64,000 nt of DNA from Opitutales bacterium. GTDB lineage: Bacteria > Verrucomicrobiota > Verrucomicrobiia > Opitutales > JAVBMG01. Under the pieces are notes generated by a model. The model was not told where the DNA came from. It saw only the letters and a program-made list of their open reading frames with translations, and made no database searches. Within the stretch, counting starts at the first letter, position 1; the number at the start of each line of letters is the position of its first letter. A program made the position numbers and the translations under genes. The stretch spans positions 24,100 to 88,099 of the forward strand of contig JAVBMG010000003.1 of assembly GCA_031552815.1 (NCBI GenBank). The letters run 5' to 3'. Shown here in pieces: positions 9,258 to 47,791 of the stretch.

Positions 9258-9290
9258 AAAAAAAGCGGTAGCATGATGCTACCGCCTTTT
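9258..9290 (-). terminator. Intrinsic terminator made of two inverted copies of the motif
   Basis: AAAAAAAG-CGGTAGCAT-G-ATGCTACCG-CCTTTT; gives a U-tract on the minus strand after the stop at 9314. Confidence 0.85.
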
Positions 9291-9313
9291 CTGTTTGTGT
9301 CTGTGAAAGTTTT

Positions 9314-10546
9314 TTATTTGTGGAGGATTTGCCACTTGCTTCCATCCAGCTTGGTATCTTCCTCAATCTGCCAGGGAAGTCCTGCGGAACCGAGACGTTC
9401 GAGGAACGGATCCGGATCGAGCTGTTCCATATTATAAACGCCTTTGCCTGTCCATTTGCCTGTGAGCATCATTTCCGCGCCGACTACGGCGGGTACCCCT
9501 GTGGTGTAGGAAATCGCCTGGCTGCCTACTTCACGGTAGGATTCCTGGTGGTCGCAAACCTGATAGATGAATATACGGCGTTTTTTGCCGTCCTTTACGC
9601 CTTCGCAGAGACAGCCGATACAGGTTTTTCCCTTGGTGCGCGGCCCGAGCGAAGCAGGGTCGGGAAGGAGGGCTTTCAGGAATTGGATCGGCACGATTTC
9701 CTTTCCTTCATAGATGACGGGATCAATGCGTGTCATGCCGACATTTTGCAAGACTTCAAGGTGTTTCAGGTAGTTCTTGGAAAAGGTCATCCAGAAACGG
9801 ATGCGTTTGAGTCCCTTGATATTCAAGGCAAGCGACTCGAGTTCCTCATGATACATGAGGTAAATGTCCTTGGTGCCGACTTCGGGATGCGGGAAATCAA
9901 ACGGTTGATTCACGGAAAGGGGCGGTGTTTCCTTCCATTCGCCGTTTTCCCAGTAGCGGCCCTTAGCCGTTACCTCGCGGATATTGATCTCAGGATTAAA
10001 ATTGGTTGCAAACGGATAACCGTGATCCCCGGCATTGGCGTCAATGATGTCCACCTGGTGGATTTCATCAAAATAATGCTTTTGTGCATAGGCGCAGAAT
10101 ACATTGGTTACTCCGGGATCGAATCCGCTGCCGAGTAATGCCATGATGCCTTTTGACTTGAAGCGGTCCTGGTAAGCCCATTGCCATTTATACTCGAATT
10201 TGGCGGTATCCAGGGGCTCATAGTTGGCGGTGTCAAGATAGGGAACGCCTGTTGCAAGGCAGGCATCCATGATGGTCAAATCCTGATAGGGAAGGGCAAT
10301 GTTCATCACAAGGTTCGGTTTTACCTTGTTGATGAGTTCAATAAGCTGATCGACTTTATCGGCATCGACGGCGGCGGTATGAATGTCGCGTCCGCATCTC
10401 TTTTTGATGTCTGCGGCAATCGCGTCGCACTTGGATTTTGTGCGGCTGGCAAGCCAGATTTCAGAGAAGACTGTTGGGTTTTGCGCACACTTTTGGGTGA
10501 CGACATTGCCGACGCCTCCCGCTCCGATGATAAGTACTTTGTTCAT
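9314..10546 (-). CDS. Carboxy(nor)spermidine synthase/dehydrogenase (saccharopine dehydrogenase family)
   Basis: GAGGVG Rossmann motif, NIALPYQDLTIMDAC, YLDTANYE, GFDPGVT, FATNFNPEINIRE; immediately downstream of speA. Confidence 0.9.
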   Translation of the reverse strand: MNKVLIIGAGGVGNVVTQKCAQNPTVFSEIWLASRTKSKCDAIAADIKKRCGRDIHTAAVDADKVDQLIELINKVKPNLVMNIALPYQDLTIMDACLATGVPYLDTANYEPLDTAKFEYKWQWAYQDRFKSKGIMALLGSGFDPGVTNVFCAYAQKHYFDEIHQVDIIDANAGDHGYPFATNFNPEINIREVTAKGRYWENGEWKETPPLSVNQPFDFPHPEVGTKDIYLMYHEELESLALNIKGLKRIRFWMTFSKNYLKHLEVLQNVGMTRIDPVIYEGKEIVPIQFLKALLPDPASLGPRTKGKTCIGCLCEGVKDGKKRRIFIYQVCDHQESYREVGSQAISYTTGVPAVVGAEMMLTGKWTGKGVYNMEQLDPDPFLERLGSAGLPWQIEEDTKLDGSKWQILHK

Positions 10547-10597
10547 GTTTTAAGAAATGCTGTTTAGGGTTCTGTTAAATGATTTGAGGCGAACGGA

Positions 10598-12544
10598 TCA
10601 ACGTTCGAAATAAGTGTATCCCCTCAATCCGTTTTCATAGGCTTCAACAATTTTCCGGCGCATCTTAAGATTGATCATTTCATCCTTGAGCGCCTGGTCA
10701 ACGCGGTTACGGAATTCCTGCAAGAGAAGTTTCGGATCGTACTCGACATAACTGAGAACGTCATTGACGGAGTCGCCTTCGATCTCGCGTACGTATTCAA
10801 ATGCATTTTCGCCGATGATTTTCACGCTGACTACATTGGTGTCGCCGAGAAGGTTGTGCAGGTCCCCGAGTGTTTCCTGATAAGCGCCGACGAGGAATGC
10901 CCCGAGAACGTACTCGTCGTTTTCCTTGAGTTCATGCAACGGTAGCGTGAAGCGTACATCGCGCAGGTCGATAAAGCGGTCAATCTTTCCGTCACAGTCG
11001 CAGGTAATGTCGGAAATGATGGCGTTGCAGGTGGGTTTCTCGTCGAGGCGATGAACGGGGATGATCGGGAAAAGCTGGTTGATGGCCCAAGAGTCAGGCA
11101 ACGACTGGAAGACGCTGAAGTTCCCGTAGTAGATATCAGCAAGCCAGCTGTCCAGTTTTTCAAAGTCATCGGGAACATAATCCATTCCTTTCACTACTGC
11201 CTGGATTTGCTTGAGTATTGTCCAGAATATCTGTTCGACAAGCGCGCGGTGACGGAGTGATGCGTGACCTTGCTTGAAGCGTTCGCGCAACTCATCGCGA
11301 TAGATGAGGGCATCGTGATAGATTTCCTGTATATTCTTTGGCGAGAGTTTTGTCTTTGAGAGGTCGAAAATATCCAGAAGCTGACTTGGCGAGTCGGCGG
11401 GAATGGTTTTAGGAACATTGACTGTCGCGATGCGGCTGATATCGAGAATGTTAAAGAGGAGTACGGAATAGTAGGCTACTGTTGCGCGTCCTGATTCAGT
11501 GACGATGATAGGATGCGGAATTTCCTTGGGATCAAGCACGCTCATGATGCTGTCAACAAGCGTACGGCAGTACTCGCCGACTGTGTAGTTGCAGCTTACC
11601 ACGGAGTAATTGGAATTGGAGCCGTCATAATCGACGGCGAGACCGCCGCCGAGGTCAAGCATGCCCATGGGCGCGCCTTCCTCGACAAGTCCGGTGTAAA
11701 CGCGGCAGGCTTCGATGATACCGTTACGGATGTCGCGGATATCCGGAATCTGTGAACCGAGGTGGTAATGGAGCATCTTCAGCCAATGAAGCTTGCCGGC
11801 CTGTTTGAGCTGGTCGACGACTTCCATGATCTGCGTGGCATTGAGTCCGAATACGCTGCGGTCGCCGCCGGTATCTTTCCAATGCCCGCCGGCGCAGGCG
11901 GAAAGTTTTACGCGTACACCGAGCACGGGATCAATGCCCAGCGCTTCGGAGCGTTCGAGGATGACGGGGAGTTCCTTGGGTGTTTCGATAACAAAAACGC
12001 AATCGACACCGATCTGGCGCGCATACAAGCCGAGATCAATGAATTCGGAGTCCTTGTATCCGTTACAGACGAGCAGCGTTCCTTTGCGCATCCCGACATA
12101 GGGAATGGCTGCGAGTAGTTCGGCCTTGCTTCCGGCTTCAAGTCCGTGATGGTATTTCGAGCCGAATTTGGCAACTTCCTCAAGTACCTGCTGCTGTTGG
12201 TTTACCTTAATGGGATAAACGCCGCGGTATTTGCCTTTGTATTTACTGTCGGCAATGGCCTGTTCAAAACTTTCGTAAAGTTTTTGTATTTGCGAATCAA
12301 GAATGTTCACGACGCGAATAAGCGCGGGCAAGTCAAAGCCGCGTTCTTTCATGTCATTCACGATGTCAATGAGGCGGACGGAGAATTTCTTTGCGGAGTC
12401 AAGTGCGTTAACAACGACGTTGCCTTTCTTGTCTACCTCGAAATGACCGGCTCCCCAGTTATTGATCCCGTATAGATCAATGGAATTTTTGACGTCCCAT
12501 TCGCTTGTTTCTGCTACGGATTGCTTTTTCTGTTTCTTTGCCAC
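10598..12544 (-). CDS. speA: Biosynthetic arginine decarboxylase
   Basis: YPIKVNQ (PLP lysine), GLEAGSKAEL, HYHLGSQI, DLGGGLAVDYDG, DITCDCDG, GAYQETLGDLHNL. Probable GTG start at 12544 (VAKKQKK). Confidence 0.93.
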   Translation of the reverse strand: MAKKQKKQSVAETSEWDVKNSIDLYGINNWGAGHFEVDKKGNVVVNALDSAKKFSVRLIDIVNDMKERGFDLPALIRVVNILDSQIQKLYESFEQAIADSKYKGKYRGVYPIKVNQQQQVLEEVAKFGSKYHHGLEAGSKAELLAAIPYVGMRKGTLLVCNGYKDSEFIDLGLYARQIGVDCVFVIETPKELPVILERSEALGIDPVLGVRVKLSACAGGHWKDTGGDRSVFGLNATQIMEVVDQLKQAGKLHWLKMLHYHLGSQIPDIRDIRNGIIEACRVYTGLVEEGAPMGMLDLGGGLAVDYDGSNSNYSVVSCNYTVGEYCRTLVDSIMSVLDPKEIPHPIIVTESGRATVAYYSVLLFNILDISRIATVNVPKTIPADSPSQLLDIFDLSKTKLSPKNIQEIYHDALIYRDELRERFKQGHASLRHRALVEQIFWTILKQIQAVVKGMDYVPDDFEKLDSWLADIYYGNFSVFQSLPDSWAINQLFPIIPVHRLDEKPTCNAIISDITCDCDGKIDRFIDLRDVRFTLPLHELKENDEYVLGAFLVGAYQETLGDLHNLLGDTNVVSVKIIGENAFEYVREIEGDSVNDVLSYVEYDPKLLLQEFRNRVDQALKDEMINLKMRRKIVEAYENGLRGYTYFER

Positions 12545-12899
12545 TCTTTTTAATATCCTGTTGGAAAAATAAAATGCAAGCAGTGTAAGGGAAAGTTTAG
12601 GGAAAAGAATACAAAAATATGTATCTTTAAAGAAAAAGACGGGTTTTTTGAAACAGGGAGGTCTTGGGTGAATATTACGGTCATTGAATCGGTATGATTT
12701 TCGTGGACATTCTATGCGGAAGATTCCGATGCTTAGGGCTGGCATTTTATTGAAAACGGCTGAAGTGCTTTCATCATTCTACTAGCATAATTTATCACTG
12801 AAATCAGATAGGTAGCGTTCTAAATGCCAAAATATTTATAATTGATTCCTAATCCACTTTAGTTGTGGAGTAGAGAAATTGCTAGGCAAATGGAAAATC

Positions 12900-12910
12900 T
12901 GTGGTATAAT
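12900..12910 (+). promoter_or_regulatory. Extended -10 promoter element (TGnTATAAT)
   Basis: TGTGGTATAAT about 38 bp upstream of the ATG at 12948. Confidence 0.5.
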
Positions 12911-12947
12911 CAGTAATTTAAAAGCTACCTTTAGAATTCAAACCATT

Positions 12948-14306
12948 ATGAAAAAACAAGTAGTTACTCGTAAGTTCATCAAGCCATCTTTCGATTATCT
13001 GATAACAAAGAAACGTGACGGAGGAGAATTCTCTGATGAGGAAATCCGGTATATTGTGGAATCCATCTATAATACCATGGATCCCAAATCGCCGGCTGAG
13101 TCCAAGATGCCGGATTACCAGATGTCGGCGCTTTGCATGGCCATTTATTTTAAGGGGATGTCTGCCCAGGAAACAGCAGTGCTTGCCGAGGAGATGATGC
13201 TTTCCGGTGAAGTGATCGACTTGTCAAAAATCAACAAGCCGAAGATTGAAAAATATTCCACCGGAGGAGTCGGAGACAAGACTTCGCTGGTGCTCGGACC
13301 CTTGGCGGTAGCATGCGGCGTTGTCATGCCGATGATGAACAGCGTCGATGAAGAGTTTCTTATTTCGAATCTGGATAAACTGGCTTCCATTCCGGGATTC
13401 AAGACGCAATTGGACTTCAAGGATTTCTCTAACCAGTTGCGTACACTGGGTGTGGCGATGTGTGCCCAGGATGACCAGATTGCTCCCGTCGAGCGCATTA
13501 TTCATGAGATGCGCCGCAAGACAGGTACGATCCCGAGTTTGCCGCTTATTACCAGCAGTGTGCTGAGCAAGAAATTTGCGCAGGGTGCGGAAGGTATCGT
13601 TGTCGACGTGAAGTGGGGCAATGGTTCTTACATCAGTGATCTTGAACAGGCTACCTTGCTGGCCCGTTCCATTACCCGCGTAAGCCGTTCAATGGAAAAG
13701 CGTTGCGTTGCGTTGGTAACGGACATGAATCAGCCGTTTGGCGATTGTGTCGGTACTGCGCTGGAAATACAGGAAGCGATCAAGTTGCTTAAGGGCGAAG
13801 GCCCGGAAGACCTGAAGGAACTGGTCTTGCGTTTGGGTATGGAAATTGTCCGTCTGGCCGGAGTTGCCGGTTCGACGCTTTCCGCGCGCCAAACGGTGGA
13901 AAGCCGCTTGCAGGACGGCAGTGCGCTTGAAGTCTTTAAGCAAATGGTGAAGATGCAGGGAGGCGATGCCAGCTACATTGACAATCCTGAGAAATTCCCG
14001 AAAGCAAAGTATGTCCGTAAATTGCCTTCACCGAAACGCGGTTATGTGCATTCCATCAATGCGGGAATGATTGCCCGAGGCGTGAAAATGCTTTCAACCG
14101 ATGACAAGGGCAAGGTGGATTATACTGCGGGTGTCACTGAGATCAAGAAGGTCGGTGCGCAGATGAAGCAAGGGGAGCCATTGATGATGATTCATTACAA
14201 TGATGAAAGCCGTCTGGATTCCGCATTGGAGTATTTGCGTCAGGCTTACCGTTTGGCTCCGAAGCGTCCGAACTCTCCCCAGTTGATTGTGGAGCGTGTT
14301 GCCTAA
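12948..14306 (+). CDS. Thymidine/pyrimidine-nucleoside phosphorylase-family protein with altered active-site motifs
   Basis: KKRDG, STGGVGDK, LSKK, DVKWGNG, LVTDMNQP motifs present. Canonical DKHS reads EKYS and the SGRGLGHTGGT loop reads NSVDEEFLISN. Confidence 0.85.
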   Translation: MKKQVVTRKFIKPSFDYLITKKRDGGEFSDEEIRYIVESIYNTMDPKSPAESKMPDYQMSALCMAIYFKGMSAQETAVLAEEMMLSGEVIDLSKINKPKIEKYSTGGVGDKTSLVLGPLAVACGVVMPMMNSVDEEFLISNLDKLASIPGFKTQLDFKDFSNQLRTLGVAMCAQDDQIAPVERIIHEMRRKTGTIPSLPLITSSVLSKKFAQGAEGIVVDVKWGNGSYISDLEQATLLARSITRVSRSMEKRCVALVTDMNQPFGDCVGTALEIQEAIKLLKGEGPEDLKELVLRLGMEIVRLAGVAGSTLSARQTVESRLQDGSALEVFKQMVKMQGGDASYIDNPEKFPKAKYVRKLPSPKRGYVHSINAGMIARGVKMLSTDDKGKVDYTAGVTEIKKVGAQMKQGEPLMMIHYNDESRLDSALEYLRQAYRLAPKRPNSPQLIVERVA

Positions 14307-14313
14307 GTGTTTT

Positions 14314-14354
14314 AAAAACAAAAACCTGCGATGATTTCGCAGGTTTTTTTGTTT
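14314..14354. terminator. Bidirectional terminator between convergent genes
   Basis: AAAAACCTGCGA-TGATT-TCGCAGGTTTTTTT. Confidence 0.8.
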
Positions 14355-14394
14355 CGGTTGCCGTGTAAAAGTATGCTACCGGGTACTATTGGGG

Positions 14395-17300
14395 TTATCC
14401 GATTTTCGCTTCTTCGGCCTGTCCGGTTTCACGGTTGAAGCGCATGGAAATCAGGCGTGTCACACCGCGTTCCTGCATGGTGGCTCCATATATATTGTCC
14501 GCGGTTGCTATGGTGCGCTTGCTGTGGCTGACGACAAGGAATTGCGAATACTGGGTGAACTGGCGGACCATGTCGGTAAAGCGGCCGATATTGGCTTCGT
14601 CCAGCGGTGCGTCCAATTCGTCGAGTACGCAGAAGGGTGAAGGTTTTACCATATAAATGGCGAAAAGCAATGCTACCGCCGTCATGGTTTTCTGCCCGCC
14701 GCTGAGCAATGTCAGGCTGCGTAATTTTGTACCGGGAGGCCGCGCGATGATTTCGATACCGGAATCAAGCGGGTCTTCGGTGGTAAGCAACTGGAGGTCG
14801 GCAAAACCGCCGCCGAATAACTTTTCGAAGGTGAAATGGAAATTCTTGCGGATTTGTTCAAAGGTGTTCTGGAAAAGCTGCAGTGAAGTTTTATTGATTT
14901 CATCAATGGCCTTAAGCAATTCTTCCTTTGATTTCCAAAGGTCGTCACTTTGCGTTTTGAGAAAATTGTAGCGTTCGCGCAACTCTACGTATTCGGCGAT
15001 GGCGTTAAGATTGACGGAATCGGACATGGACAGCACCTTTTCACGAAGTACCTTGATTTCTTCGGCTATCGGTACCCAATCGGTGTGATCCATTGCTGCA
15101 AAGTCCTCATCGGTCGGATCACCGCGATGTTTGGCTTTTGCCTCGGGTTCACCGTCTTCGAGTTCGTCAAGATTGACGCGTGTAACAAATTCGGTATCTG
15201 CTTCCCAAAGTTCTTTTTTCCATGCTACCGTTGCGATGTCTATCTGATAGTCGGTCTGGAATTTTTCCTGGATAAAGCTGCGTTGATTGCGTTCTCCTGC
15301 CAGGGAAATCTCTACCTTGCTCAATACTCCCGTAAGTTCCTGAACCTGATCGCGTTCTCCCGAAATGCTTTGTTCCTTTTCAGCAACCTGGGCGGTGATT
15401 TCATCGTATTCCTTTTTTTCCTGAAGAAGGAGTGTCTGGAGCATTTCGAGTTGCAGGGCGAGTTCGGATGCCTTGGATTGGTAAGCGGCTGCCTGCTGCT
15501 GCGATTCGGCGATCTGTGCGCGTACGCGGTCAAGTTCCTGACTGAGGCGGGCAACCCGGTTGATTGTCTCGGCTTTCTGTTGCTGGATTTCGGATAATCC
15601 GCGCTCAATGATTTCAAGACGTTGTTTTTTCTCCTGAAGATCAAAGCGTACGGCGGAAAGCGATTCCCGGCGTTGGTCGAGGTCAAGGCGGAGCGTGGTT
15701 ATTTTTAATTCAAATTCACTGATACGCGCTTTCTTCTCCTCAATGTTCCTTTCTGCTTCCGCAAGGGTTCCTTGCGCTTCCTGGAGTTTCTGGCGTGAAC
15801 TTTCTCCGGAGTATTCGAAGTCCGAGAGGTCTTTCTCACTTTTTTCTCTCTCTCTGTTATTTTGTTCGAGTTGCTGCTGAACGCCTTTTTCTTCTGCTTG
15901 CAGCGTGGAGATTTCCTGTCCGATTTCAACGGTGAGCTGGCGGCGTTCCTCAATTTTGTTTTCTGTCCCGGTCAGCTCGTTTTGTAGTTTTTCCCGTTGT
16001 TCGTGAAGTGCATCAAGAATTTTTTGCTTCTCGGTGATTTCCTGCTTAAGGGTACGAATGTCGTTCTGTCTTTGGAGGAAGGAGGCATTGCTGCCGCCTT
16101 TACCTTTGCCGCCGTAAACCAGTCCGCGCCTGTCCAGCAGTTCTCCGTTTTGCGTGGCAACGAACAGGAATTCAAAGGCAGGATTTTCTTTCCAGAAATC
16201 AAGGAAATGATCGAGTGTGTCGCAAAAATAGCAGTGAGCGGTAAAACGCGAGAGGGCATCTTTCAGGGACTCGTTGCTGGTGCTGACCTTTGTTTTAACG
16301 GCAGCGATGAATTCGGGCAGCGCGGTTACATGACCAGTTTGTGCCCCGGGAACGGATGGTATCTGAAGGCTGGCTTTCCCGTATTCATTGCGTGAGAGTT
16401 CGCGGAATACGGCTGAGGCGCTGATATTGTCCTGTATGACGAGTGTGTCCGCTGCGCCGCTGAGCAATGCTTCCATTGCGGAAGTATATGTGCTAGGGAT
16501 GATAAGATCCTGGGAAAGCAGTCTGCAGGCATCCGGCGGTAGCGTGTCCTGCAATTTTCCTTTCAGAATGGCTTTTGCGCCTTCGCTGAAACCTTCCATT
16601 TTCTCCTGGAGATCTTCAAGGAGTTTTAGCTGGGCTGTCCGGCGGGTGAGTTCGCGGTCCTGATTTTGCAGATCGCTTTGGAGTTGCCTGAATTGGGTAA
16701 GAAGATCGGTCAGCGCTTTTTTATCCAGAGCAAGTGTTTCCTGTTCGCGTGCGTTTTCGCTTTGTCTGATTTCCAGTGTTTTCCTGATTTCAGCGAGTTC
16801 CTGTTCCTTTGATTGGCGTTCGTTGTTGAGTTTGTAAAGCTGTTCGCTAAGGGTTGCGTGTCTTTCCTGGTATTTGCTGAGCTCGACTTCGATGCTTGTG
16901 CAATTGGAGCGAAGGCGCGTAATGCTGCCTTCGTACATGAGCAATTCCTGACGGGCTTCGTTCCAGCTTTGTTCCGTGGTCTTCAGTTCGCTCTGCTGGG
17001 AATTGAGTTCCTCATTGCGTTTCTTTACGATCTCATCGGAAGAACCGACCAGGTTGAGCTGTTCCTGTTTAAAGGAGGTGTTGTCTGCCGCTTTTTTGTC
17101 GAGAGCATCGCGGTAACTCAGGATCTCCGCAATTTCCGTTTCAATCTCGGCAATGCGGTTTTGAAGATCGTTACAGCGTGTTTCCAGCAGATATTTGCTT
17201 TGTACTTCGGCATTTTCCTTTTCGGAGCGAAGATCAAAAATTCCCTGCTGGCGGTTTTGTATGTTTGCGTTGAGTTCGCTGAGCCGAGCCCTAAGGCCTG

Positions 17301-18108: not shown

Positions 18109-18214
18109 TTTTGGGCGGACATCATTTCATAAAACCTTTCCATCGTAAATTTAAAAAGAGAAATAACTATGATTTTAGAAATGTTTTATAAACATCGTTG
18201 CTTTAGATTGCATT

Positions 18215-18227
18215 TTGTCATAGACAA
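18215..18227. promoter_or_regulatory. Palindrome TTGTC-ATA-GACAA, candidate GntR/FadR-type operator
   Basis: Perfect 5-3-5 inverted repeat in the smc/gntR divergent intergenic region; fits the GT-N-AC pattern of GntR-family boxes. Confidence 0.35.
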
Positions 18228-18348
18228 GATGATCGCTTTTCATAAAAACGTCTTTTCGTATCACCAAAACATTAAACTTATATTAAAGAGTTTACAAAAT
18301 GTCAGGTGCATGGCAATGTAATATCATTAATTTAAATTATTTGAAATT

Positions 18349-19107: not shown

Positions 19108-19250
19108 GCTGATTAAAACTCATTTATGAATAAGAACGGCAGAAATGCCGTTCTTTTTTTATACGGTTCTTTGGGAACTGTTTTGAAGTATAAAGCAATT
19201 GCAGGCAGCTGCCCTTGACGTTTCTCGTTGCATCAGTACGCACGGAATCT
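19100..19250 (+). pseudogene. Strongly decayed 5' remnant of the Dph6-like ATPase gene
   Basis: TGGCTAAGCTGA..TTATGAATAAGAACGGC..GGTTCT..GCATCAGTACGCACGG aligns by eye to TGGCTGAGCTGA..TGATGAACTGGAGCGGC..GGTTCT..GTATCAGTATGCATGG at 21356-21506. Confidence 0.55.
19132..19160 (+). terminator. Intrinsic terminator after gntR copy 1
   Basis: AAGAACGGCA-GAAA-TGCCGTTCTT followed by TTTTT. Confidence 0.85.
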
Positions 19251-19259
19251 GTTTGTCAT

Positions 19260-23286: not shown

Positions 23287-23317
23287 AAGGCGGTAGCATA
23301 ATGTTGCCGCCTTTTTT
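23287..23317 (+). terminator. Intrinsic terminator built from an exact motif and a variant copy
   Basis: AAGG-CGGTAGCAT-A-ATGTTGCCG-CCTTTTTT. Confidence 0.85.
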
Positions 23318-25771: not shown

Positions 25772-25808
25772 AAAAAGGCGGTAGCATGAATGTTACCGCC
25801 TTTTTTTT
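25772..25808. terminator. Bidirectional terminator built from a motif pair
   Basis: AAAAAGG-CGGTAGCAT-GA-ATGTTACCG-CCTTTTTTTT between convergent genes. Confidence 0.88.
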
Positions 25809-32159: not shown

Positions 32160-32203
32160 AGACGGTAACATGGGAAACCCACTGTTGCCGTCTTCCTGTT
32201 TTT
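32160..32203 (+). terminator. Hairpin of variant motif copies after the Sel1 gene
   Basis: AGACGGTAACA-TGGGAAACCCAC-TGTTGCCGTCT followed by TCCTGTTTTT. Confidence 0.6.
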
Positions 32204-34123: not shown

Positions 34124-34223
34124 TGACGCTTCATCAATGCTATGCGTTCGAATGAGACAAGCAAGTCTTTTAGTTTACGGAAAGAGGGTATCCATCCGGT
34201 AGGCGGTAACATGTTGTTGCCGT

Positions 34224-37405: not shown

Positions 37406-37475
37406 TAAAGAAAACTACACTATGGCACTTATTGTTTGGCAAGAGAGAAAGTGGACGGAGGAAAAGGAAACAGTT

Positions 37476-37504
37476 CCGAACGGTAGCATGATGTTACCGT
37501 TCGG
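37476..37504. terminator. Motif-pair hairpin between mscL and ruvB
   Basis: CCGAA-CGGTAGCAT-G-ATGTTACCG-TTCGG; no strong adjacent U-tract. Confidence 0.6.
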
Positions 37505-37533
37505 GTAAAAATGGTGTTAAAACCTTTGCGGTT

Positions 37534-37989: not shown

Positions 37990-38167
37990 ATTTAGAAGTG
38001 TAGGATTGTGTTAAAAATAGGGCCGTTTTTCTGAATAATCAAGCCGTGTTAAGGGAAAAAAAGGAGAAGGCAAGCATGTTTATCCAGACAGTGAATCCGC
38101 AGTGTTGTTTTAGAGTTATCATTTCACTTCTTGCAGAAAGTAAGGAACTGTTTATCGTGATAGCTTT

Positions 38168-41074: not shown

Positions 41075-41084
41075 GCCGATTACG

Positions 41085-41113
41085 GGCGGTAGCATGGTTC
41101 ATGCTGCCGTTTT
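41085..41113 (+). terminator. Motif-pair hairpin after the M16 protease gene
   Basis: GG-CGGTAGCAT-GGTTC-ATGCTGCCG-TTTT. Confidence 0.7.
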
Positions 41114-41210
41114 GCCCGGAAAATCCATAGATCGGATTTGGTCCGGAAACATGTTTAAAAATTTGCCAAAACAACGGATACGGTTTTACTTTCCGCTTTA
41201 ATTATTTTTT

Positions 41211-42593
41211 ATGGCTACAAAGGTTGCATTCACTTCATTGGGTTGTGCCAAGAATCTGATAGACTCGGAAATTATGATAGGACATCTGAGAAAAGCCGGA
41301 ATGGCGATTACTCCTGATCCGAAAATATCCGATGTTGTCATCATCAATACCTGTTCTTTTATCCACGACGCAAAAGTGGAAAGCATAAACTCCATCAAGG
41401 AAGCAATCGAAATGCGTTCGGAAGAACGGAGCAGGAGCGGGAAGATGATTGCCCGTAACCGCAAGGTGATTGTGGCAGGATGTTTGTCCCAGCGTTTTGC
41501 GACGGAGTTGCCTAAACTGATGCCTGAGGTGGATGCCTTTATCGGATTGGACCAGTTGAAAGATATTGCGGCGATTGTCAACGGAGTCATGCTAAAGACG
41601 GGCGGTAGCATGCCTGAATCCCATATCTCAAAAAAGCTCACTTATATTCCCGATTACGATACCCCACGTTACCGTCTTACGCCTTCCTATTCGGCTTACG
41701 TAAAGATTGCCGAGGGCTGTAATCATAATTGCACATTTTGCATTATTCCAAAAATCCGCGGTATGCACAGAAGCCGGACCCAGGAGTCGGTGGTACGCGA
41801 GGTTGAACAGTTGGTGAAGGAGGGTGTCCGCGAAATAAACCTTATTTCCCAGGATACGACCTATTTCGGCATGGATCGTTGGGAAAGCGAACGTCCGAAT
41901 AAACGAAGCAAAGTGGATTCCGGTAAGGGAGAATCCCTGGCTTCGTTAATCCGCGAGCTTGATAAGATCGAAGGTGATTTTTGGATACGGCTGCTTTATA
42001 CCCATCCGGCTCATTGGAGCGACGAATTGATAGCAGCTATGGCAAAATCAAAAAAGGTAGCCCGTTATGTGGATATCCCGTTACAGCACATCTCGGACAA
42101 AATGCTGTCTGCGATGCAACGGGAAACAGACGGCGCTTATATCCGCAATCTTATAAAGCGGATAAGAAAAGGCATTCCCGGCGTGGCCGTCCGTTCCGCG
42201 TTCATTGTCGGATTTCCCGGGGAATCCGAAGCAGATTTTGAGGAGTTAATGGAATTCCTGGATGAGGCGAAACTTGATCGGGTCGGTATTTTCCAATACT
42301 CCAGGGAAGAAGGAACACGCGCTTACAACAGCAAGAAGCAAGTGCATCATGCTACCAAGAAACGCCGTTGGAACGCGGCTATGCAGCTGCTTCAGGAACT
42401 GGCCGTTGAACGGAATAAGCAAATGATAGGACAATCCATGCGAGTGCTTGTTGAAGGTAATGGACTGGCGCGCAGCGAAGGTGACGCCCCGGATATTGAC
42501 GGTATGGTCTTTGTCAGGAAATCACTGCCTGCCGGTAGCTTTGCGGACGTAAAAATCAAGAATTACCGGGATTACGATTTGATTGCCGAATGA
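41211..42593 (+). CDS. rimO: Ribosomal protein S12 methylthiotransferase
   Basis: SLGCAKNLIDSE, INTCSFI, KIAEGCNHNCTFC (radical SAM CxxxCxxC), WIRLLY, APDIDG (TRAM). Confidence 0.93.
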   Translation: MATKVAFTSLGCAKNLIDSEIMIGHLRKAGMAITPDPKISDVVIINTCSFIHDAKVESINSIKEAIEMRSEERSRSGKMIARNRKVIVAGCLSQRFATELPKLMPEVDAFIGLDQLKDIAAIVNGVMLKTGGSMPESHISKKLTYIPDYDTPRYRLTPSYSAYVKIAEGCNHNCTFCIIPKIRGMHRSRTQESVVREVEQLVKEGVREINLISQDTTYFGMDRWESERPNKRSKVDSGKGESLASLIRELDKIEGDFWIRLLYTHPAHWSDELIAAMAKSKKVARYVDIPLQHISDKMLSAMQRETDGAYIRNLIKRIRKGIPGVAVRSAFIVGFPGESEADFEELMEFLDEAKLDRVGIFQYSREEGTRAYNSKKQVHHATKKRRWNAAMQLLQELAVERNKQMIGQSMRVLVEGNGLARSEGDAPDIDGMVFVRKSLPAGSFADVKIKNYRDYDLIAE

Positions 42594-42640
42594 TTTTACT
42601 TTCAATGCCTGTGCAAAAGGGCTAATTTACATGTAACTTA

Positions 42641-42967
42641 ATGAAAACTATCTTTGCTAAGTTTATTGCATTTGTTTTGGCAGTCGGAATCGGTGTCGGC
42701 GCCTATTTTCTGTGGAAAGAGGTTGCGTCCGCACGGCGGGTACATGGAAATACGCAACTGAATCTGGAAGAAGCAGAGCACCAGAAAGAAGTAAAAGCCC
42801 AGGAAGTGGAAAAGAACCGTGAACGGGCAAATCGTTTGTCCGATCCGAATGACAAGGAGGCGATTGAGGCGGAAGCCAGGAAGCAAGGATTCAAAAAACC
42901 CGGGGAAGTGGTTTACCAGGCGCAAAAAGAAGATCCGCAGCCTGCCGAAGCCGGCGAACGTCAATAA
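42641..42967 (+). CDS. Septum formation initiator-like protein (FtsB/DivIC family)
   Basis: N-terminal TM helix, coiled coil, EAIEAEARKQGFKKPGEVVY. Confidence 0.65.
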   Translation: MKTIFAKFIAFVLAVGIGVGAYFLWKEVASARRVHGNTQLNLEEAEHQKEVKAQEVEKNRERANRLSDPNDKEAIEAEARKQGFKKPGEVVYQAQKEDPQPAEAGERQ

Positions 42968-43092
42968 AACAGACGGTGCATGGTTGTGTCGGCTATGTTG
43001 TATTTAGATAATACATCATATGTTTTTTTCTAATTGATCTTAAAAGGATATTTTCTAGTATTTATTTAATGTCTTATGTCATGTGTGTTGCC

Positions 43093-44550
43093 ATGAAAAA
43101 AATACTTATAGTGATTGGTTTCTTGTTTTTTTCCTTCGCATTGGCTTGTGCCCAGATGCGTGATTTCAAGGATAAACAGGGAAGAACGATAAGCGCCCAG
43201 CTGGTTTTTTCAGTCGGTGACGATGTTACCATCAAGATGGCCGACGGTCAGACATTCCAATTGAAGCTGGATGTATTTTCAGAGGAAGATCAGAAATTCA
43301 TTAAGGAGTGGGCAAATAAAAATCAGACAACTGTTGGCTTTCGCGAATTGAATGAGGCTTTTGGTTTGCCGCTATTCCTTGATGTACCTCTGTGGGAAGA
43401 GGATGCCAGAACGGTTTCCCAGCGATTAAAGAATTGGCAGAAAACTACCAAGGGTAGCGGGCTTTCATGTTATCGCAACAGTTCCCCGGCGGATTCGCTG
43501 ATGGTACTGGGAGCGCATCCGTATTCGCTTGCCTTGTTTGGTGGTTATGACGGGAAAGTGACGGACATTTCCATTGTTTTCGCTAACAGATCCGAATGTG
43601 TTTATGACAACGTTGATGTGGATGTAAAGTCCTCTTCAGGAAAGAAAAACGTTGATAATGAAACCGAAAAAAAATTACGGATACGGCTTTCCCAAGTGTT
43701 AAAACCGCTTATGGATGCCGATGAAAAGGCGATAAAAGAAACACTGAGCGCATGGGGTAATGGGAAACAGGTCAATTTGGGTAAGACGAGAAATGACAAG
43801 GAACGTGTTACCATGTGGAAAGTGAACGATTTCATGATTTTGCTTGTAGTCCAGGACAATGCCTATGTCGGGATACGGATTGTTAAGCAGGATTTTACCG
43901 AATTGCGGACGCTTGATAAAACGGTTGCGGAAGCGAAAACCCATTTTTCCGAACAAATCGAAAAGGCTGATAACGGGGACGTCATTCTGACAGGGGTTCC
44001 GGCCATTAGTACGACCATCAACAGTGTAATTCCGGCCGCATTTGAAAGCTTTTTCCGTTATGGCGGTTTGGCTGCGGATTCATATGCCTTGTCTATGATC
44101 GGTCTGTATACTGACTTTGCCAATCCGTCATTAATTGCCAATGATCTGATAACAAATATTGAAGCTTGGGGAACCACTCAAGGTCTTGGTTTCAGTAAAA
44201 AACGGTTTGTGATCACGGTAAAGGATGTGCAACAGTACATTGATAAAGGGCAGCCGATCCTCTGGGTTTATACCAATTCCTCCGTGTTAAGCTCCATTCT
44301 GCGGAACAGGAATACGGCGAGAAGCAGCACATCCGATACAGCTGAATGGATCGAAACGTTGAATGCTGATACGCAGTCTATTTCCAAACTGAAAGTAGAA
44401 AAGGGCCTCGTAAGCGCTACTTTGATTATCGGGTATAACAAGGAAACCGATGAAATAGGATTTTATGATTCTCTCGGAAAGAATGTCGTTTGGCTGAGAA
44501 CTAACGAAGCCAATGCTGTTTCGGAAAATCAGTTCTTTGTTTTCAATTAG
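43093..44550 (+). CDS. Secreted SHD1-like + C39/papain-like protein lacking catalytic residues
   Basis: RDFKDKQGRTISAQL N-domain; colinear paralog of the next gene, but VDQGPKGYC reads ISTTINSVI and GHVCLIIGYN reads VSATLIIGYN. Confidence 0.72.
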   Translation: MKKILIVIGFLFFSFALACAQMRDFKDKQGRTISAQLVFSVGDDVTIKMADGQTFQLKLDVFSEEDQKFIKEWANKNQTTVGFRELNEAFGLPLFLDVPLWEEDARTVSQRLKNWQKTTKGSGLSCYRNSSPADSLMVLGAHPYSLALFGGYDGKVTDISIVFANRSECVYDNVDVDVKSSSGKKNVDNETEKKLRIRLSQVLKPLMDADEKAIKETLSAWGNGKQVNLGKTRNDKERVTMWKVNDFMILLVVQDNAYVGIRIVKQDFTELRTLDKTVAEAKTHFSEQIEKADNGDVILTGVPAISTTINSVIPAAFESFFRYGGLAADSYALSMIGLYTDFANPSLIANDLITNIEAWGTTQGLGFSKKRFVITVKDVQQYIDKGQPILWVYTNSSVLSSILRNRNTARSSTSDTAEWIETLNADTQSISKLKVEKGLVSATLIIGYNKETDEIGFYDSLGKNVVWLRTNEANAVSENQFFVFN

Positions 44551-44580
44551 CTTTTTTATTTTTATTACACCAGTTATCCA

Positions 44581-46020
44581 ATGAAAAATACCCCAGTCGT
44601 TTATTTTATTATCCTATTGCTGTTCTCTTGCTCAATCGCATCCGCGGAAATCCGGGAATTTAAGGATAAACAGGGCAGAACCATCCGGGCGGAAATTGTT
44701 TCCGTTTCAGAGAGTGATGTTTCAATAAAAACAGAGGATGGAAAAAGCTTCCAGTTAAAGCTGGATGTCTTTGATGAGCCTACCCAGCAGTATATCCGGG
44801 AATGGAAACAGAAAAATGAAGAGGCGGCTCCTCCAAAGAGCACTGCGACTTTGGACATAAAGAAAATAAACGAATTGTTCGGATTGCCTGTTTTTTCAGA
44901 AACCAGTTTATGGGAGGAAGATCCCAAGCTTGCAGCTGTTCGTTTACTTTTACCTAAAGAGTCAAAAACGGATTTTGTGGAAAGCTACCGTTTGTATCCT
45001 CCGTCCAATTACCAAATACTGGGAGCTCATCCTTTTTCGGTGGTACTCTACGGAGCTGAAGGGAAAGTTACGGAAATATCCATGGTCTTTGCGAATAAGG
45101 GGGATAGTATTGTCGTATTCGGAGAGCTGACAAACCGCCAGACCAAGAATGCGACTGCGAAGCTCCAGGAATTCATGGACAAGGATGAAGCCAGCATCAA
45201 GGAGCGTCTCAATCAACTGGCAACACCCACATCCAGTATTTTCGGCAAGGATAAGAATACACGGGAGAAAGTATTTATCTGGAGCCTGGACGATTACCGG
45301 ATAGTGCTTTCTGCCCAGGATGGCGAGTATGTCGGTTTGCGCATTATTAGGCCGGAAGTCGCAGAGGCCAAAGGAAAAATTGCGATGACCAGTTTTTCCA
45401 AGACACGCGCATTTATGAAATCGCAGGTCGAAAAACTGGAAAATGGCGATGTTCTCATAAAAAACATACCGATGGTGGATCAGGGACCCAAAGGTTATTG
45501 CGCTCCCGCTGTATTTGAACGTTGTTTCCGTTACATAGGGGTTCCGGCAGATATGTATGTGTTGGCGATGGCTGGAAAAACTATGCTTGGCGGAGGAACC
45601 TATATTGATGACCTTGTTGACGGAATCGAACGCTGGGCAAAATCCCAAGGGCGGAAAATTAACCGCAAGAAAACAGGCATTACGATGAGTGTCGTGAAAT
45701 CATACATTGATGACGGTCAACCCATTGCGTGGATCTTGTCATCATCGCCGAATTTTAATACAATCGCGAACAAAAGAACCGCGATGAGAAAAGAGACCCT
45801 GGATATGAAGGTATGGGCAAAGACAATAGCCGGGGAAGATACACTCAAGTATCTGGCGCCCGTGGGCTATGGTCATGTCTGCCTGATCATCGGCTATAAT
45901 GCCGGTACAAAGGAAGTTGCCATAAGCGATTCATGGGGAAAAGGATTTGAATTACGTTGGGTGCGCGTGGACGAGGCTGACGCTGTTTCACGCGGTGAAA
46001 TTGTTCTTCTGGAACCTTGA
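44581..46020 (+). CDS. Secreted SHD1-like + C39/papain-like cysteine peptidase
   Basis: REFKDKQGRTIRAEI; IPMVDQGPKGYCAPA (Q, C), GHVCLIIGYN (H), ISDSWG. Confidence 0.78.
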   Translation: MKNTPVVYFIILLLFSCSIASAEIREFKDKQGRTIRAEIVSVSESDVSIKTEDGKSFQLKLDVFDEPTQQYIREWKQKNEEAAPPKSTATLDIKKINELFGLPVFSETSLWEEDPKLAAVRLLLPKESKTDFVESYRLYPPSNYQILGAHPFSVVLYGAEGKVTEISMVFANKGDSIVVFGELTNRQTKNATAKLQEFMDKDEASIKERLNQLATPTSSIFGKDKNTREKVFIWSLDDYRIVLSAQDGEYVGLRIIRPEVAEAKGKIAMTSFSKTRAFMKSQVEKLENGDVLIKNIPMVDQGPKGYCAPAVFERCFRYIGVPADMYVLAMAGKTMLGGGTYIDDLVDGIERWAKSQGRKINRKKTGITMSVVKSYIDDGQPIAWILSSSPNFNTIANKRTAMRKETLDMKVWAKTIAGEDTLKYLAPVGYGHVCLIIGYNAGTKEVAISDSWGKGFELRWVRVDEADAVSRGEIVLLEP

Positions 46021-46037
46021 TTTACTTCTACAGGCTT

Positions 46038-47741
46038 ATGTTATCTCAAAAATTATCCCGTTACCTTGTATTTGTATTAATTTCCATATTACCGTGTGTC
46101 TCTGTACAGGCGCAAAACACGGCCAAGAAAACATGGGAATTGGCAAAAGCCTTTGCAGAAAAGGAAGGATGGAAACCCACAGCCGAAAAGATGAAAGCAT
46201 TTTCCGTGCAAAATTACGAGCGGGGTGCCTATGATCAGGCAATAGAAAACTATTATCTTTATCTTTGGTGCCAGGTCATGGCAGAGCAGAAGGCTGATAT
46301 GGACAGTGAGTTTCTGGATTATGCGATGCGTGAAAAGGTTTTCAGCGAAAGCTTCTGGAATCTTATTTCGGAGAAAGACGATTTTAAAATGGTAATGACG
46401 ATCCTGTGCCGATTGTATAAAAATGACAGTACGCTGTTCAACCAGTATCAAAACCTTGCACTCGCCATTGCCGTTGTATACGACCAGCAACCTTCATCGT
46501 CCAATTGGCCGCATTTTCAGGTAGGATCTCAGGCGCGGAATTCCATTCCGCAGGGATTGCCCGATCCGTTGGAAGCATTTAATTTTTTCGTTGAACGGGA
46601 TACGAAGTTGGGCACGTTGTACCGTCTTCCCCGTTTGTCTGCAGGAGAACTGAAGTTTGTCGTGGATGTGACTGCTTCCTTTGATGAACTTATGTGGGTG
46701 CGGACAAAGGTAAAGCTGAACATCAGTGATTTGAACCCCATTTACCAAGGGATCAAATATGATATGGCCCGGCTCGAAGCCGGAAAATACAGTTGGACGG
46801 ATAATGATTACCGTTTGCAGAATATTTACAAGAAAGGAGGCATTTGCATTGATCAGGCCTATTTTACGACGCAGGTATGCAAGGTGAACGGAGTTCCGAG
46901 CATTTCTATTTCCGGCAGCGGTAAAGACGGGTATCATGCGTGGGTCGGTTACTATAAGCGGGGAAACTGGGATTTCTCTGTTGGACGCTACGAATCGGAC
47001 AACTATCTTTCCGGTTCGGCTTTTGATCCGCAAACGTGGAAAGAAGTCAGTGATCATGCCATTGATTATCTCATTGAACCCTTTCGTAAAACGGATGATT
47101 TCAAGCGGGCGAAAATCCATCTTGCCTTTGCGAAACTTTATTTGGATACGGATGGCGAAAAGGCAGTGAAGGCCGCACAGGCTGCTGTAAAGTTATCGCC
47201 GCTTTATGATGAAGCCTGGGATCTTTATATCAGTGCTTCAGGGAAAAACAAGACCGATGCTAAAGATTACGAAGCCGCATTGCAGGAAGCGATCAAGGCT
47301 TTGTCCAAATACGTGGAAATACAGTCTGTTTATGTCGATCGCCTGTCGAAGAGTTATAAGGATAGGGGAGAAACGCAATTAGCGCATGACTTACAGGTTT
47401 CCATGGCTAAAAAAATGGCAAGAAAACGGTCTGATCTCAGTATTGAACTGGCGTCTGATGCACTACGGGAAGTCATAAAGGAAAAAGGAATCGACCAGGG
47501 ATTCATGGAGTATAAAAGTACATTGATGCGTTTTAAGTCCGCAAACGGAACAGATCTCGTTAATAATATCGTGCAACCGTTTGTGGTGGCTTCCGTGGAT
47601 GCAAACAACCGGAAGCTGGCGATGCAGGCGGTAAAATATGCCCAGGATAAAATTCCTTATGAGCGTGGTTCGCAGCTTGAAGAACAGTTTGACGAAATCA
47701 TGCGTTACATTGATCCCAACAGCGTGAAAAAGAAAAAATAG
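46038..47741 (+). CDS. Secreted transglutaminase-like (Cys-His-Asp) protein with TPR-like C-terminus
   Basis: GGICIDQAYFTTQVCKVNGVPS..GYHAWVGY..WDF; AVKLSPLYDEAW TPR-like segment; signal peptide. Confidence 0.65.
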   Translation: MLSQKLSRYLVFVLISILPCVSVQAQNTAKKTWELAKAFAEKEGWKPTAEKMKAFSVQNYERGAYDQAIENYYLYLWCQVMAEQKADMDSEFLDYAMREKVFSESFWNLISEKDDFKMVMTILCRLYKNDSTLFNQYQNLALAIAVVYDQQPSSSNWPHFQVGSQARNSIPQGLPDPLEAFNFFVERDTKLGTLYRLPRLSAGELKFVVDVTASFDELMWVRTKVKLNISDLNPIYQGIKYDMARLEAGKYSWTDNDYRLQNIYKKGGICIDQAYFTTQVCKVNGVPSISISGSGKDGYHAWVGYYKRGNWDFSVGRYESDNYLSGSAFDPQTWKEVSDHAIDYLIEPFRKTDDFKRAKIHLAFAKLYLDTDGEKAVKAAQAAVKLSPLYDEAWDLYISASGKNKTDAKDYEAALQEAIKALSKYVEIQSVYVDRLSKSYKDRGETQLAHDLQVSMAKKMARKRSDLSIELASDALREVIKEKGIDQGFMEYKSTLMRFKSANGTDLVNNIVQPFVVASVDANNRKLAMQAVKYAQDKIPYERGSQLEEQFDEIMRYIDPNSVKKKK

Positions 47742-47758
47742 TTTTTTTCATAAAGGCA

Positions 47759-47791
47759 TAAAAAAAGACGGTAGCATCACTACCGTCTTTT
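47759..47791. terminator. Bidirectional terminator containing the motif
   Basis: AAAAAAAGACGGTAG-CATCA-CTACCGTCTTTT between convergent genes. Confidence 0.85.

What the first reader, a model, noticed from the sequence alone, without database searches (positions are those of the whole stretch)
9258..47791. Inverted pairs of the motif form intrinsic terminator stems
Seen: eight intergenic hairpins use the motif or close variants as arms, all with CGGTARCAT on the left: 9266/9276, 23291/23301, 25779/25790, 32163/32182, 34204/34214, 37481/37491, 41087/41101 and 47769/47780 (right arm truncated to CTACCG). Most follow stop codons and several carry A/T tracts. Flanks and loops differ, so this is not one copied element. 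In the hairpins after plus-strand genes (23291, 25779, 32163, 41087) the deviations give G-U pairs in the transcript; the 37481 hairpin does not fit that for its minus-strand gene. Established: DUS/USS inverted pairs act as rho-independent terminators. This is independent support for the uptake-sequence reading.
Basis: partly seen in the sequence, partly recalled or inferred. Interest (0 to 1): 0.75.

Follow-up and report, generated by a model that had tools for sequence, protein, structure and literature searches.

The report
Terminator hairpins built from abundant word
In this gut verrucomicrobial genome many transcription-stop hairpins are made of two opposite copies of a nine-letter DNA word that saturates the chromosome, as happens in Neisseria and Haemophilus, where the equivalent words guide DNA uptake.

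Summary
All eight hairpins exist as described. CGGTARCAT/ATGYTACCG is the most over-represented 9-mer family of this 2.49 Mb Opitutae-like genome: 1907 copies, 81% in genes, no conserved flanks.

Genome-wide, the arrangement CGGTARCAT-loop-ATGYTACCG is strongly preferred. 77 such pairs lie between genes, and 74 of them face a gene 3' end, a median of 24 nt after the stop. A and T tracts follow the direction of the flanking genes. In my own terminator scan 82 of 549 predicted terminators (15%) carry the word, and 43 of 152 (28%) of the strongest.

Four of the eight window hairpins are canonical terminators, three have weak U tracts, and one (34204) is not terminator-like.

- REP/MITE is rejected.
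- The G-U asymmetry does not hold genome-wide: 6 versus 5.
- The hairpins reproduce a hallmark of DUS/USS genomes but do not test uptake.
- The word is absent from 30 other families of the order.
- No paper linking uptake sequences to this phylum was found.

Unchecked notes of this scan describe a similar thing in an uncultured Verrucomicrobiales genome.

The parts
9257..9293 (.). Hairpin 1: GCGGTAGCAT-G-ATGCTACCGC between an A run and a T run, 29 nt after the stop of the minus-strand saccharopine-dehydrogenase-like gene (9314-10546). On the minus strand it is followed by U7.
   Evidence: dG -23.7 on the minus strand; flagged by the tool scan and by my scan; gene
23287..23313 (+). Hairpin 2: AAGGCGGTAGCAT-A-ATGTTGCCGCCTT followed by TTTTATTT, 20 nt after the stop of the plus-strand gene 22131-23267. 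It has two G-U pairs in the plus-strand RNA.
   Evidence: dG -18.3 plus strand, -10.3 minus strand; flagged
25772..25805 (.). Hairpin 3: AAAAAGGCGGTAGCAT-GA-ATGTTACCGCCTTTTT between convergent genes (23371-25755 plus, 25824-28403 minus). It looks bidirectional.
   Evidence: dG -21.3 / -17.5; top-ranked site of the tool scan; flagged for both genes
32160..32193 (+). Hairpin 4: AGACGGTAACATGGG-AAA-CCCACTGTTGCCGTCT, 34 nt after the stop of the plus-strand gene 31044-32126. The tail is TCCTGTTTTTGA, so the U run is displaced.
   Evidence: dG -21.8; not flagged by either scan
34203..34223 (.). Hairpin 5: GCGGTAACA-TGT-TGTTGCCGT. There is no U tract after it on either strand. It lies just behind the separate hairpin-plus-U7 terminator of tRNA-Met (34261-34336, minus strand).
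   Evidence: dG -11.6 plus strand, -5.3 minus strand; not flagged by either scan
37475..37505 (-). Hairpin 6: CCGAACGGTAGCAT-G-ATGTTACCGTTCGG, 30 nt after the stop of the minus-strand mscL-like gene (37534-37989) and upstream of ruvB. The minus-strand RNA has one A.C mismatch and the weak tail AACTGTTTCCTT.
   Evidence: dG -16.9 minus strand; not flagged by either scan
41083..41118 (+). Hairpin 7: motif stem CGGTAGCATG-GTT-CATGCTGCCG (41087-41109) followed by TTTTG, 12 nt after the stop of the plus-strand M16 peptidase gene 38168-41074. An outer CGGG/CCCG helix is possible.
   Evidence: dG -21.1; U4 only; not flagged by either scan
47763..47791 (.). Hairpin 8: AAAAGACGGTAG-CATCA-CTACCGTCTTTT between convergent genes (46017-47741 plus; PEPCK 47813-49612 minus). 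The right arm is shortened to CTACCG. U7 follows on the minus strand.
   Evidence: dG -16.7 / -17.4; flagged for both genes by my scan, not listed by the tool scan

Best explanation
The hairpins are intrinsic (Rho-independent) transcription terminators, many of them bidirectional. Their stems are assembled from two inverted copies of the genome's hyper-abundant word (G-R-)CGGTARCAT.

How it works (inferred):
- The arrangement CGGTARCAT-loop-ATGYTACCG puts the G+C-rich end of the word (GRCGG/CCGYC) at the base of the stem, next to the U tract. The CAT/ATG end closes a 3-5 nt loop.
- Because about 1900 copies of the word lie on both strands, a second inverted copy beside an existing one is a cheap way to make a 9-11 bp stem.
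- Selection for termination then adds the A and T tracts.

Shown here: the sequence anatomy, the genome-wide arrangement bias, the placement after stop codons and the direction-dependent tails.

Inferred only: that RNA polymerase stops there.

The word itself is most likely a lineage-specific DNA-uptake-type signal. I put that at about 0.4. The hairpins are consistent with it but do not prove it.
For: Folding and over-representation:
- 8 of 8 window hairpins fold.
- The word occurs 51 times in the window against 0.61 expected and 1907 times in the genome, and ATGCTACCG is the top 9-mer.

Arrangement:
- With one strict arm, a partner of at most 2 mismatches and a gap of 1-2 nt, the counts are FR (CGGTARCAT then ATGYTACCG) 58, RF (the reverse order) 6, FF 2, RR 4 (FF and RR are two copies in the same orientation).
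- Strict-strict pairs with a gap of 0-10: FR 33, RF 9, FF 1, RR 3.

Place:
- Of 118 FR pairs with a gap of at most 12, 77 lie outside my gene calls: 31 convergent, 43 tandem and only 3 divergent.
- The comparison figures outside genes are 5 of 56 FF, 6 of 47 RR and 25 of 61 RF.
- Density per kb of spacer: tail-to-tail 0.69 (30 in 43.3 kb), tandem 0.32 and 0.21, head-to-head 0.05 (3 in 63.0 kb).
- 62 of the 74 hairpins that face a gene 3' end start within 40 nt of the stop, median 24 nt.

Tails follow transcription (mean A in the 8 nt upstream / mean T in the 8 nt downstream):
- Tandem-plus 3.1 / 5.5.
- Tandem-minus 5.25 / 3.3.
- Tail-to-tail 4.9 / 4.8.
- These tails are not part of the word. 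A is 0.60-0.65 at positions -5 to -3 of hairpins but 0.26-0.29 at the same positions of all copies.

Scan that does not use the word:
- 549 of 1787 gene ends have a hairpin of dG -8 or lower plus a T tract, and 82 of these carry a strict word.
- The share rises with stability: 2/122, 3/73, 11/76, 23/126 and 43/152.
- In 450 intragenic control segments, 65, 16, 7 and 2 pass at -8, -12, -14 and -17, and 1 carries the word.

The tool's own scan ranks three of the motif hairpins first in 9000-28999.

The same three tests (configuration bias, tail-to-tail enrichment, direction of tails) are those used for DUS/USS terminators by Kingsford et al. 2007 (PMC1852404, passages read).
Against: - No 3'-end data are available. 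The only RNA run is held as assembled contigs, which cannot show transcript ends.
- 4 of the 8 window hairpins fail my U-tract criteria, and 5 of 8 fail the tool's.
- 34204 has no U tract and sits behind another terminator.
- Gene calls are my own crude ORF and codon-usage caller (1787 genes). My terminator scan has a 14% hit rate on intragenic controls at dG -8, falling to 1.6% at -14.
- The tool's simple scan finds no more terminator-like sites than in shuffles overall (22 against 23.0; 26 against 24.1).
- The genome encodes Rho, so hairpins without U tracts may work differently.

Against the uptake reading of the word:
- No stand-alone ComEA was found. Both models hit only a 783-aa open frame.
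- No relative carries the word.
- No experiment exists.
Confidence: 0.75

Rival explanations
1. The hairpins are 3'-end RNA stabilisers or processing barriers, or they assist Rho-dependent termination, rather than being intrinsic terminators. This would apply above all to those without a good U tract.
For: 32163, 37481, 41087 and 34204 have weak or no U tracts and fail both scans. Rho is encoded.
Against: As a class the hairpins carry T tracts on the side that gene direction predicts. The most stable hairpin-plus-T-tract sites are those richest in the word.
Confidence: 0.12
2. The 19-bp near-palindromes are binding sites for a dimeric DNA-binding protein that reads the abundant word. They would act as DNA, and the RNA hairpin would be incidental.
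For: 39 of the 77 intergenic pairs have exactly one base between the arms, which is a fixed spacing.
Against: - Only 3 of 77 lie in head-to-head (promoter) spacers.
- Loops range from 0 to 12 nt.
- G-U pairs and truncated arms keep RNA pairing but not the DNA palindrome.
- A/T tails track transcription direction.
Confidence: 0.06
3. The pairs are copies of a small mobile palindromic element of REP or MITE type.
For: They are intergenic palindromes that recur about 77 times. BLAST between loci gives many 35-50 nt matches.
Against: - The matches cover only the word plus its A/T tails. Information content falls to background beyond about 12 nt on each side.
- The only longer shared flanks (4-5 loci, about 110 nt) are the 3' ends of paralogous giant genes.
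- 81% of single copies of the word lie inside genes.
- Loops and stem extensions differ between loci.
Confidence: 0.03
4. The word is a Chi- or KOPS-like polar signal tied to replication, and the hairpins are a by-product of its density.
For: There is a mild excess of CGGTARCAT on the leading strand.
Against: The orientation is only 1035 to 807 (56:44) relative to the GC-skew-defined leading strand. From memory, known polar signals are far more skewed than this. A by-product would not give the FR/RF bias or the placement after stop codons.
Confidence: 0.02

Closest known systems
Inverted-repeat DUS terminators of Neisseriaceae (GCCGTCTGAA ... TTCAGACGGC)
   Same: - A 9-12 nt word is present well over 1000 times on both strands.
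- Closely spaced inverted copies form the stems of predicted Rho-independent terminators.
- One configuration is strongly preferred: 226 to 5 in N. meningitidis against 33 to 9 here.
- The pairs are enriched in tail-to-tail spacers.
- A/T tails follow gene direction.
(Kingsford 2007, passages read; here.)
   Different: - The word is unrelated in sequence.
- The organism is Opitutae-like (Verrucomicrobiota), not a betaproteobacterium.
- The share of terminators with the word is lower: 15-28% here against about 55% reported for Neisseria.
- Only 30% of intergenic copies are in hairpins, against 81% reported there.
- Here the A/T tails are not part of an extended word.
- Uptake function and a receptor are unknown.
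USS pairs in terminators of Pasteurellaceae (AAGTGCGGT and relatives)
   Same: - The numbers are similar. Configuration bias is about 2-4 to 1 (H. influenzae 50 to 25). About a third of intergenic copies are in terminators (34% reported there; 110 of 368 here).
- Earlier estimates of 13-29% of terminators carrying the word are quoted in bioRxiv 10.1101/2025.10.24.684340 (passages read).
- Most copies are in genes, with strong reading-frame preferences.
- The word also shares the five letters (G/A)CGGT with the 3' end of the USS as printed. That may be chance.
   Different: - Different phylum.
- No AT-rich 3' extension of the word.
- No demonstrated competence.
- No ComEA-type gene found.
REP / MITE-type intergenic palindromes
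   Same: Recurrent intergenic palindromes that often sit after genes and can act as terminators or RNA stabilisers.
   Different: - No conserved flanks and no element boundaries.
- The arms are single copies of a word that is mostly intragenic.
- No sign of copy-and-paste except where paralogous genes were duplicated together with their ends.

Membership tests
Intrinsic (Rho-independent) terminator | Stable G+C-rich stem-loop | tested here: met
   8 of 8 fold, with the better strand at dG -11.6 to -23.7.
Intrinsic (Rho-independent) terminator | U-rich tract directly after the stem on the transcribed strand | tested here: inconclusive
   Met for 4 of 8 in my scan and 3 of 8 in the tool scan. 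It is weak at 32163, 37481 and 41087 and absent at 34204. At class level the tails follow gene direction.
Intrinsic (Rho-independent) terminator | Lies shortly after the end of a gene or operon | tested here: met
   7 of 8 lie 12-36 nt after a stop codon. Genome-wide, 62 of 74 lie within 40 nt, and only 3 of 77 are in head-to-head spacers.
Intrinsic (Rho-independent) terminator | Transcripts end at the U tract | not testable with these tools
   Only assembled RNA contigs of one study were available, and they cannot show transcript ends.
DUS/USS inverted-repeat terminators | Arms are copies of a word present about 1000 times or more, on both strands, in genes and spacers, without conserved flanks | tested here: met
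   1907 copies (1004 and 903 on the two strands); 81% in genes; the logo is confined to G-R-CGGTARCAT-S.
DUS/USS inverted-repeat terminators | Preferred configuration of the pair, and rarity of direct pairs | tested here: met
   FR 33, RF 9, FF 1, RR 3 at a gap of 0-10.
DUS/USS inverted-repeat terminators | The word enhances uptake of DNA by competent cells, through a cognate receptor | not testable with these tools
   Only permissive genes were seen: ComEC, DprA, 3 secretins, 12 prepilin-type proteins and 8 T2SSE-type ATPases. ComEA models hit only a 783-aa frame.
DUS/USS inverted-repeat terminators | Host in Neisseriaceae or Pasteurellaceae, and word a known dialect | tested here: not met
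   The nearest RuvB relatives are Opitutales/Puniceicoccales MAGs at 74-75% identity. The word differs from GCCGTCTGAA and AAGTGCGGT as printed.
REP/MITE | Shared sequence beyond the palindrome, element ends, intergenic restriction | tested here: not met
Chi/KOPS-type polar word | Strong orientation bias with replication | tested here: not met
   1035 to 807 (56:44).

The most novel reading that the evidence does not exclude
The word (G-R-)CGGTARCAT is a genuine DNA uptake sequence of a gut-dwelling Opitutae-like verrucomicrobium. That would be self-DNA-selective natural transformation evolved independently of the Neisseriaceae and Pasteurellaceae, read by an unidentified pilus-associated receptor. 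The word would then have been independently co-opted into about a fifth of the lineage's intrinsic terminators, exactly as in those two proteobacterial families.
Probability: 0.35. Interest if true: 0.8.

Novelty: new variant of a known kind. Interest (0 to 1): 0.55.

Why it matters
Terminators built from inverted pairs of a genome-saturating word are documented for only two proteobacterial families, where the word is the DNA-uptake signal. The same anatomy appears here with the same three statistical signatures, in a different phylum and with an unrelated word.

This means one of two things. Either uptake-type signals, and with them self-selective transformation, are more widespread than thought. 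Or any hyper-abundant word tends to be recruited into terminators, and the DUS/USS-terminator link is then less specific than assumed.

Here the A/T tails are clearly separate from the word, which makes the case for selection on termination cleaner than in the classic systems.

On the practical side, the word marks native DNA. Deserts of the word flag strongly constrained or foreign regions. The hairpins also give a ready set of candidate terminators for an uncultured lineage.

Tried and rejected
RNA evidence
- One run search found a metatranscriptome, X2, holding 54% of the sampled words, and I laid it on 30000-49999.
- It is held as contigs from one study only. An mscL contig (37463-37968) stops 12 nt beyond the base of hairpin 6. 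The PEPCK contig (47820-49662) stops before hairpin 8.
- Contigs cannot show transcript ends, so I draw nothing from this.

G-U asymmetry
- True in the window, but genome-wide in one-directional spacers it is 6 wobbles against 5 A.C in the transcript (stem positions 1-7).
- A replication-strand explanation (15 against 7 by my count from the rows) is not significant either.

Relatives carrying the word
- 30 other families of the order have 27 or fewer copies of ATGCTACCG, against 1316 here.
- The genome is the only one of its family held.
- 10 relatives sampled (20-100 kb each of 2-3.7 Mb genomes) show no hyper-abundant complex 9-mer.
- The 7-kb RuvB loci were too short to tell.

Collection scans with the hairpin
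- One metagenome contig and two viral contigs matched. Each holds only the palindrome itself and no further enrichment of the word. I take these as chance or unrelated.

Shared flanks
- The 4-5 loci with about 110 nt in common have no Rfam family or tRNA. They are the 3' ends of paralogous giant genes.

Other readings
- The Chi/KOPS reading was rejected on orientation.

Tool promoter and terminator scan
- Overall counts do not exceed shuffles, so I used it only for the ranking of individual sites.
Full report
**Observation**

The pattern CGGTARCAT occurs 51 times in the 64-kb window, where 0.61 is expected from dinucleotide-preserving shuffles. The stems run 9257-9293, 23287-23313, 25772-25805, 32160-32193, 34203-34223, 37475-37505, 41083-41118 and 47763-47791. 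In every case the CGGTARCAT arm is on the left.

By my own gene calls and Pfam, seven of the eight start 12-36 nt after a stop codon:
- Two lie between convergent genes (25779, 47769).
- Three follow plus-strand genes (23291, 32163, 41087).
- Two follow minus-strand genes (9266, 37481).

The eighth (34204) lies behind tRNA-Met (34261-34336, minus strand). It comes directly after that tRNA's own hairpin-plus-U7 terminator and has no U tract on either strand.

**The word in the genome**

The window is part of a 2.49 Mb, 17-contig genome.

- CGGTARCAT and its complement occur 1907 times, about once per 1.3 kb. The logo extends only to G-R-CGGTARCAT-(C/G), and the flanks carry no information.
- ATGCTACCG is by far the commonest 9-mer (1316 copies), followed by its own one-letter variants.
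- 81% of copies lie in my gene calls, with strong reading-frame preferences. One frame is empty, and it would contain a stop codon. Density is 1.25 per kb between genes against 0.70 per kb in genes.
- Orientation relative to the GC-skew-defined leading strand is 1035 to 807. That is far from a polar signal.
- Stretches free of the word are over-dispersed: 11 gaps exceed 10 kb where 0.9 is expected.
- The largest gap is the ribosomal-protein gene cluster. Another is a low-GC (36%) rml and glycosyltransferase region. A third is a glycyl-radical enzyme, sulfatase and GH2 region.

**Hairpins genome-wide**

I paired one strict arm with a partner of at most two mismatches. FR means CGGTARCAT then ATGYTACCG, RF the reverse order, and FF and RR two copies in the same orientation.

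| Measure | FR | RF | FF | RR |
|---|---|---|---|---|
| Pairs with a gap of 1-2 nt | 58 | 6 | 2 | 4 |
| Strict-strict pairs, gap 0-10 | 33 | 9 | 1 | 3 |
| Pairs with gap of at most 12 that lie outside genes | 77 of 118 | 25 of 61 | 5 of 56 | 6 of 47 |

- The 77 intergenic FR pairs split into 31 convergent, 43 tandem and 3 divergent spacers.
- Per kb of spacer, the hairpins are 14 times denser in tail-to-tail regions (30 in 43.3 kb) than in head-to-head regions (3 in 63.0 kb).
- 62 of the 74 that face a gene 3' end begin within 40 nt of the stop codon, median 24 nt.
- The tails follow transcription. Downstream T is high after plus-strand genes (5.5 of 8), upstream A is high for minus-strand genes (5.25 of 8), and both are high between convergent genes (4.9 and 4.8).
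- These tails are a property of the hairpins, not of the word. A reaches 0.60-0.65 at positions -5 to -3 of hairpins but is 0.26-0.29 for all copies.
- My criteria caught only 5 of the 8 window hairpins, so 77 is a conservative count.
- 113 of the 1907 strict copies, and 110 of the 368 intergenic ones, sit in these hairpins.

**Share of terminators**

I also ran a scan that ignores the word. It asks for a single hairpin of dG -8 or lower, ending at a T tract, within 150 nt of each of the 1787 gene ends.

- It finds 549 sites, and 82 of them (15%) contain a strict word.
- The share rises with stability, from 2 of 122 (dG -8 to -10) to 43 of 152 (dG -17 or lower).
- On 450 intragenic control segments the scan fires 65, 16, 7 and 2 times at -8, -12, -14 and -17. 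One of those hits contains the word.
- In the window it flags hairpins 9266, 23291, 25779 (both directions) and 47769 (both directions), that is 4 of 8.
- The tool's simple scan flags 3 of 8 and ranks them first in their 20-kb stretch. Its overall counts do not exceed shuffles.

**What failed**

Transition mismatches at stem positions 1-7 in one-directional spacers give a wobble in the transcript 6 times and an A.C mismatch 5 times.

The REP/MITE alternative fails as well. Similarity between loci is confined to the word and its A/T tails and reaches background beyond about 12 nt. The only longer shared flanks belong to four or five hairpins that follow paralogous genes of 4133-4349 codons. No RNA family or tRNA is present there.

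**Organism and relatives**

- The closest RuvB relatives are MAGs labelled Opitutales, Puniceicoccales, Coraliomargarita or Ruficoccus, at 74-75% identity. This agrees with an earlier unchecked note of this scan that calls the chromosome verrucomicrobium-like.
- The genome is the only one of its family in the held set.
- The 30 other families of its order carry ATGCTACCG at background level, 27 copies or fewer.
- Ten relatives, sampled at 20-100 kb each, show no hyper-abundant complex 9-mer of their own.
- Scans of metagenome and viral contigs with the palindrome returned only isolated occurrences.

**Comparison with what is known**

Kingsford et al. 2007 (PMC1852404; I read passages only) showed the following for Neisseria and Pasteurellaceae:
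- Terminator stems are often made of inverted uptake sequences.
- One configuration is preferred (226 to 5 in N. meningitidis; 50 to 25 in H. influenzae).
- Such pairs are enriched in tail-to-tail regions.
- A/T tails follow gene direction.

All of these are reproduced here, with figures closest to the Pasteurellaceae.

A 2025 preprint (10.1101/2025.10.24.684340; passages only) still treats such sequences as a feature of those two families. My two full-text searches found no paper combining uptake sequences with Verrucomicrobia or with words beginning Opitut. Subscription journals are not covered by these searches.

Unchecked notes of this scan report a similar word-built terminator, and a word with a 'dialect', in an uncultured Verrucomicrobiales genome. 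I did not test those.

**Uptake reading**

The word has the genomic hallmarks of an uptake sequence:
- copy number;
- presence on both strands;
- occurrence in genes and in spacers;
- frame bias;
- lineage specificity;
- absence from a low-GC island and from highly constrained genes;
- recruitment into terminators.

The genome also encodes ComEC, DprA, three secretins, twelve prepilin-type proteins and eight T2SSE-type ATPases. These genes also occur in non-competent control genomes, as the tool's controls show. No stand-alone ComEA was found. Nothing here tests uptake. The hairpins therefore agree with the uptake reading but are not independent proof of it.

**Verdict**

The terminator interpretation is well supported for the class and for at least half of the listed hairpins. 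Three have weak U tracts, and one is not terminator-like. REP/MITE is rejected, and the G-U refinement is not supported.

It is a new variant of a known kind: DUS/USS-style terminators built from a different word in a different phylum.

Noticed in passing
window 34226-34336: tRNA-Met (34261-34336, minus strand) has its own strong bidirectional-looking terminator (AAAAACTTCCCG-loop-CGGGAAGTTTTT). A short ORF of about 85 codons that my caller did not call may lie at about 33868-34124 on the minus strand.
   Followed up: partly
window 35160-35197: A very stable terminator-like hairpin (dG -25) whose arms are CCTACCG / CGGTAGG. That is the 6-letter core of the word in the opposite (RF) arrangement, flanked by A6 and T6.
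   Followed up: no
window 7059-9129: A GxGYxYP-family glycoside-hydrolase-like gene appears split into two overlapping minus-strand ORFs. The N-terminal domains are in 8446-9129 and the third and C-terminal domains in 7059-8486. It could be a frameshift or an assembly error.
   Followed up: no
window 18349-21362: Three tandem GntR/FCD-family regulator paralogues of 252, 257 and 252 aa.
   Followed up: no
G000:C17:28940-53375; G000:C11:414967-428012; G000:C2:65434-84697: The longest stretches free of the word are the ribosomal-protein/EF-G/SecY cluster (24 kb), a 36% GC rml and glycosyltransferase region (13 kb), and a glycyl-radical enzyme, sulfatase and GH2 region (19 kb). There are 11 gaps over 10 kb where 0.9 is expected.
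   Followed up: partly
G000:C5:83262-111023 and G000:C13:19863-46820: Four paralogous giant genes (4133-4349 codons) alternate with genes of about 490-530 codons. Each giant gene ends with a conserved 3' region followed by a hairpin built from the word.
   Followed up: partly
G000:C1:116746-116940: The only match to ComEA-type helix-hairpin-helix models lies in a 783-aa open frame (Tex-like by size, which is my guess). No stand-alone ComEA was found.
   Followed up: partly
window 30000-49999 (run X1): In the DNA run that may be the source, 20 of the 34 laid contigs are only 95-99% alike. This suggests related strains, or conserved pieces of other organisms, in the same sample. Extra depth at 34281-34321 corresponds to the tRNA.
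   Followed up: no
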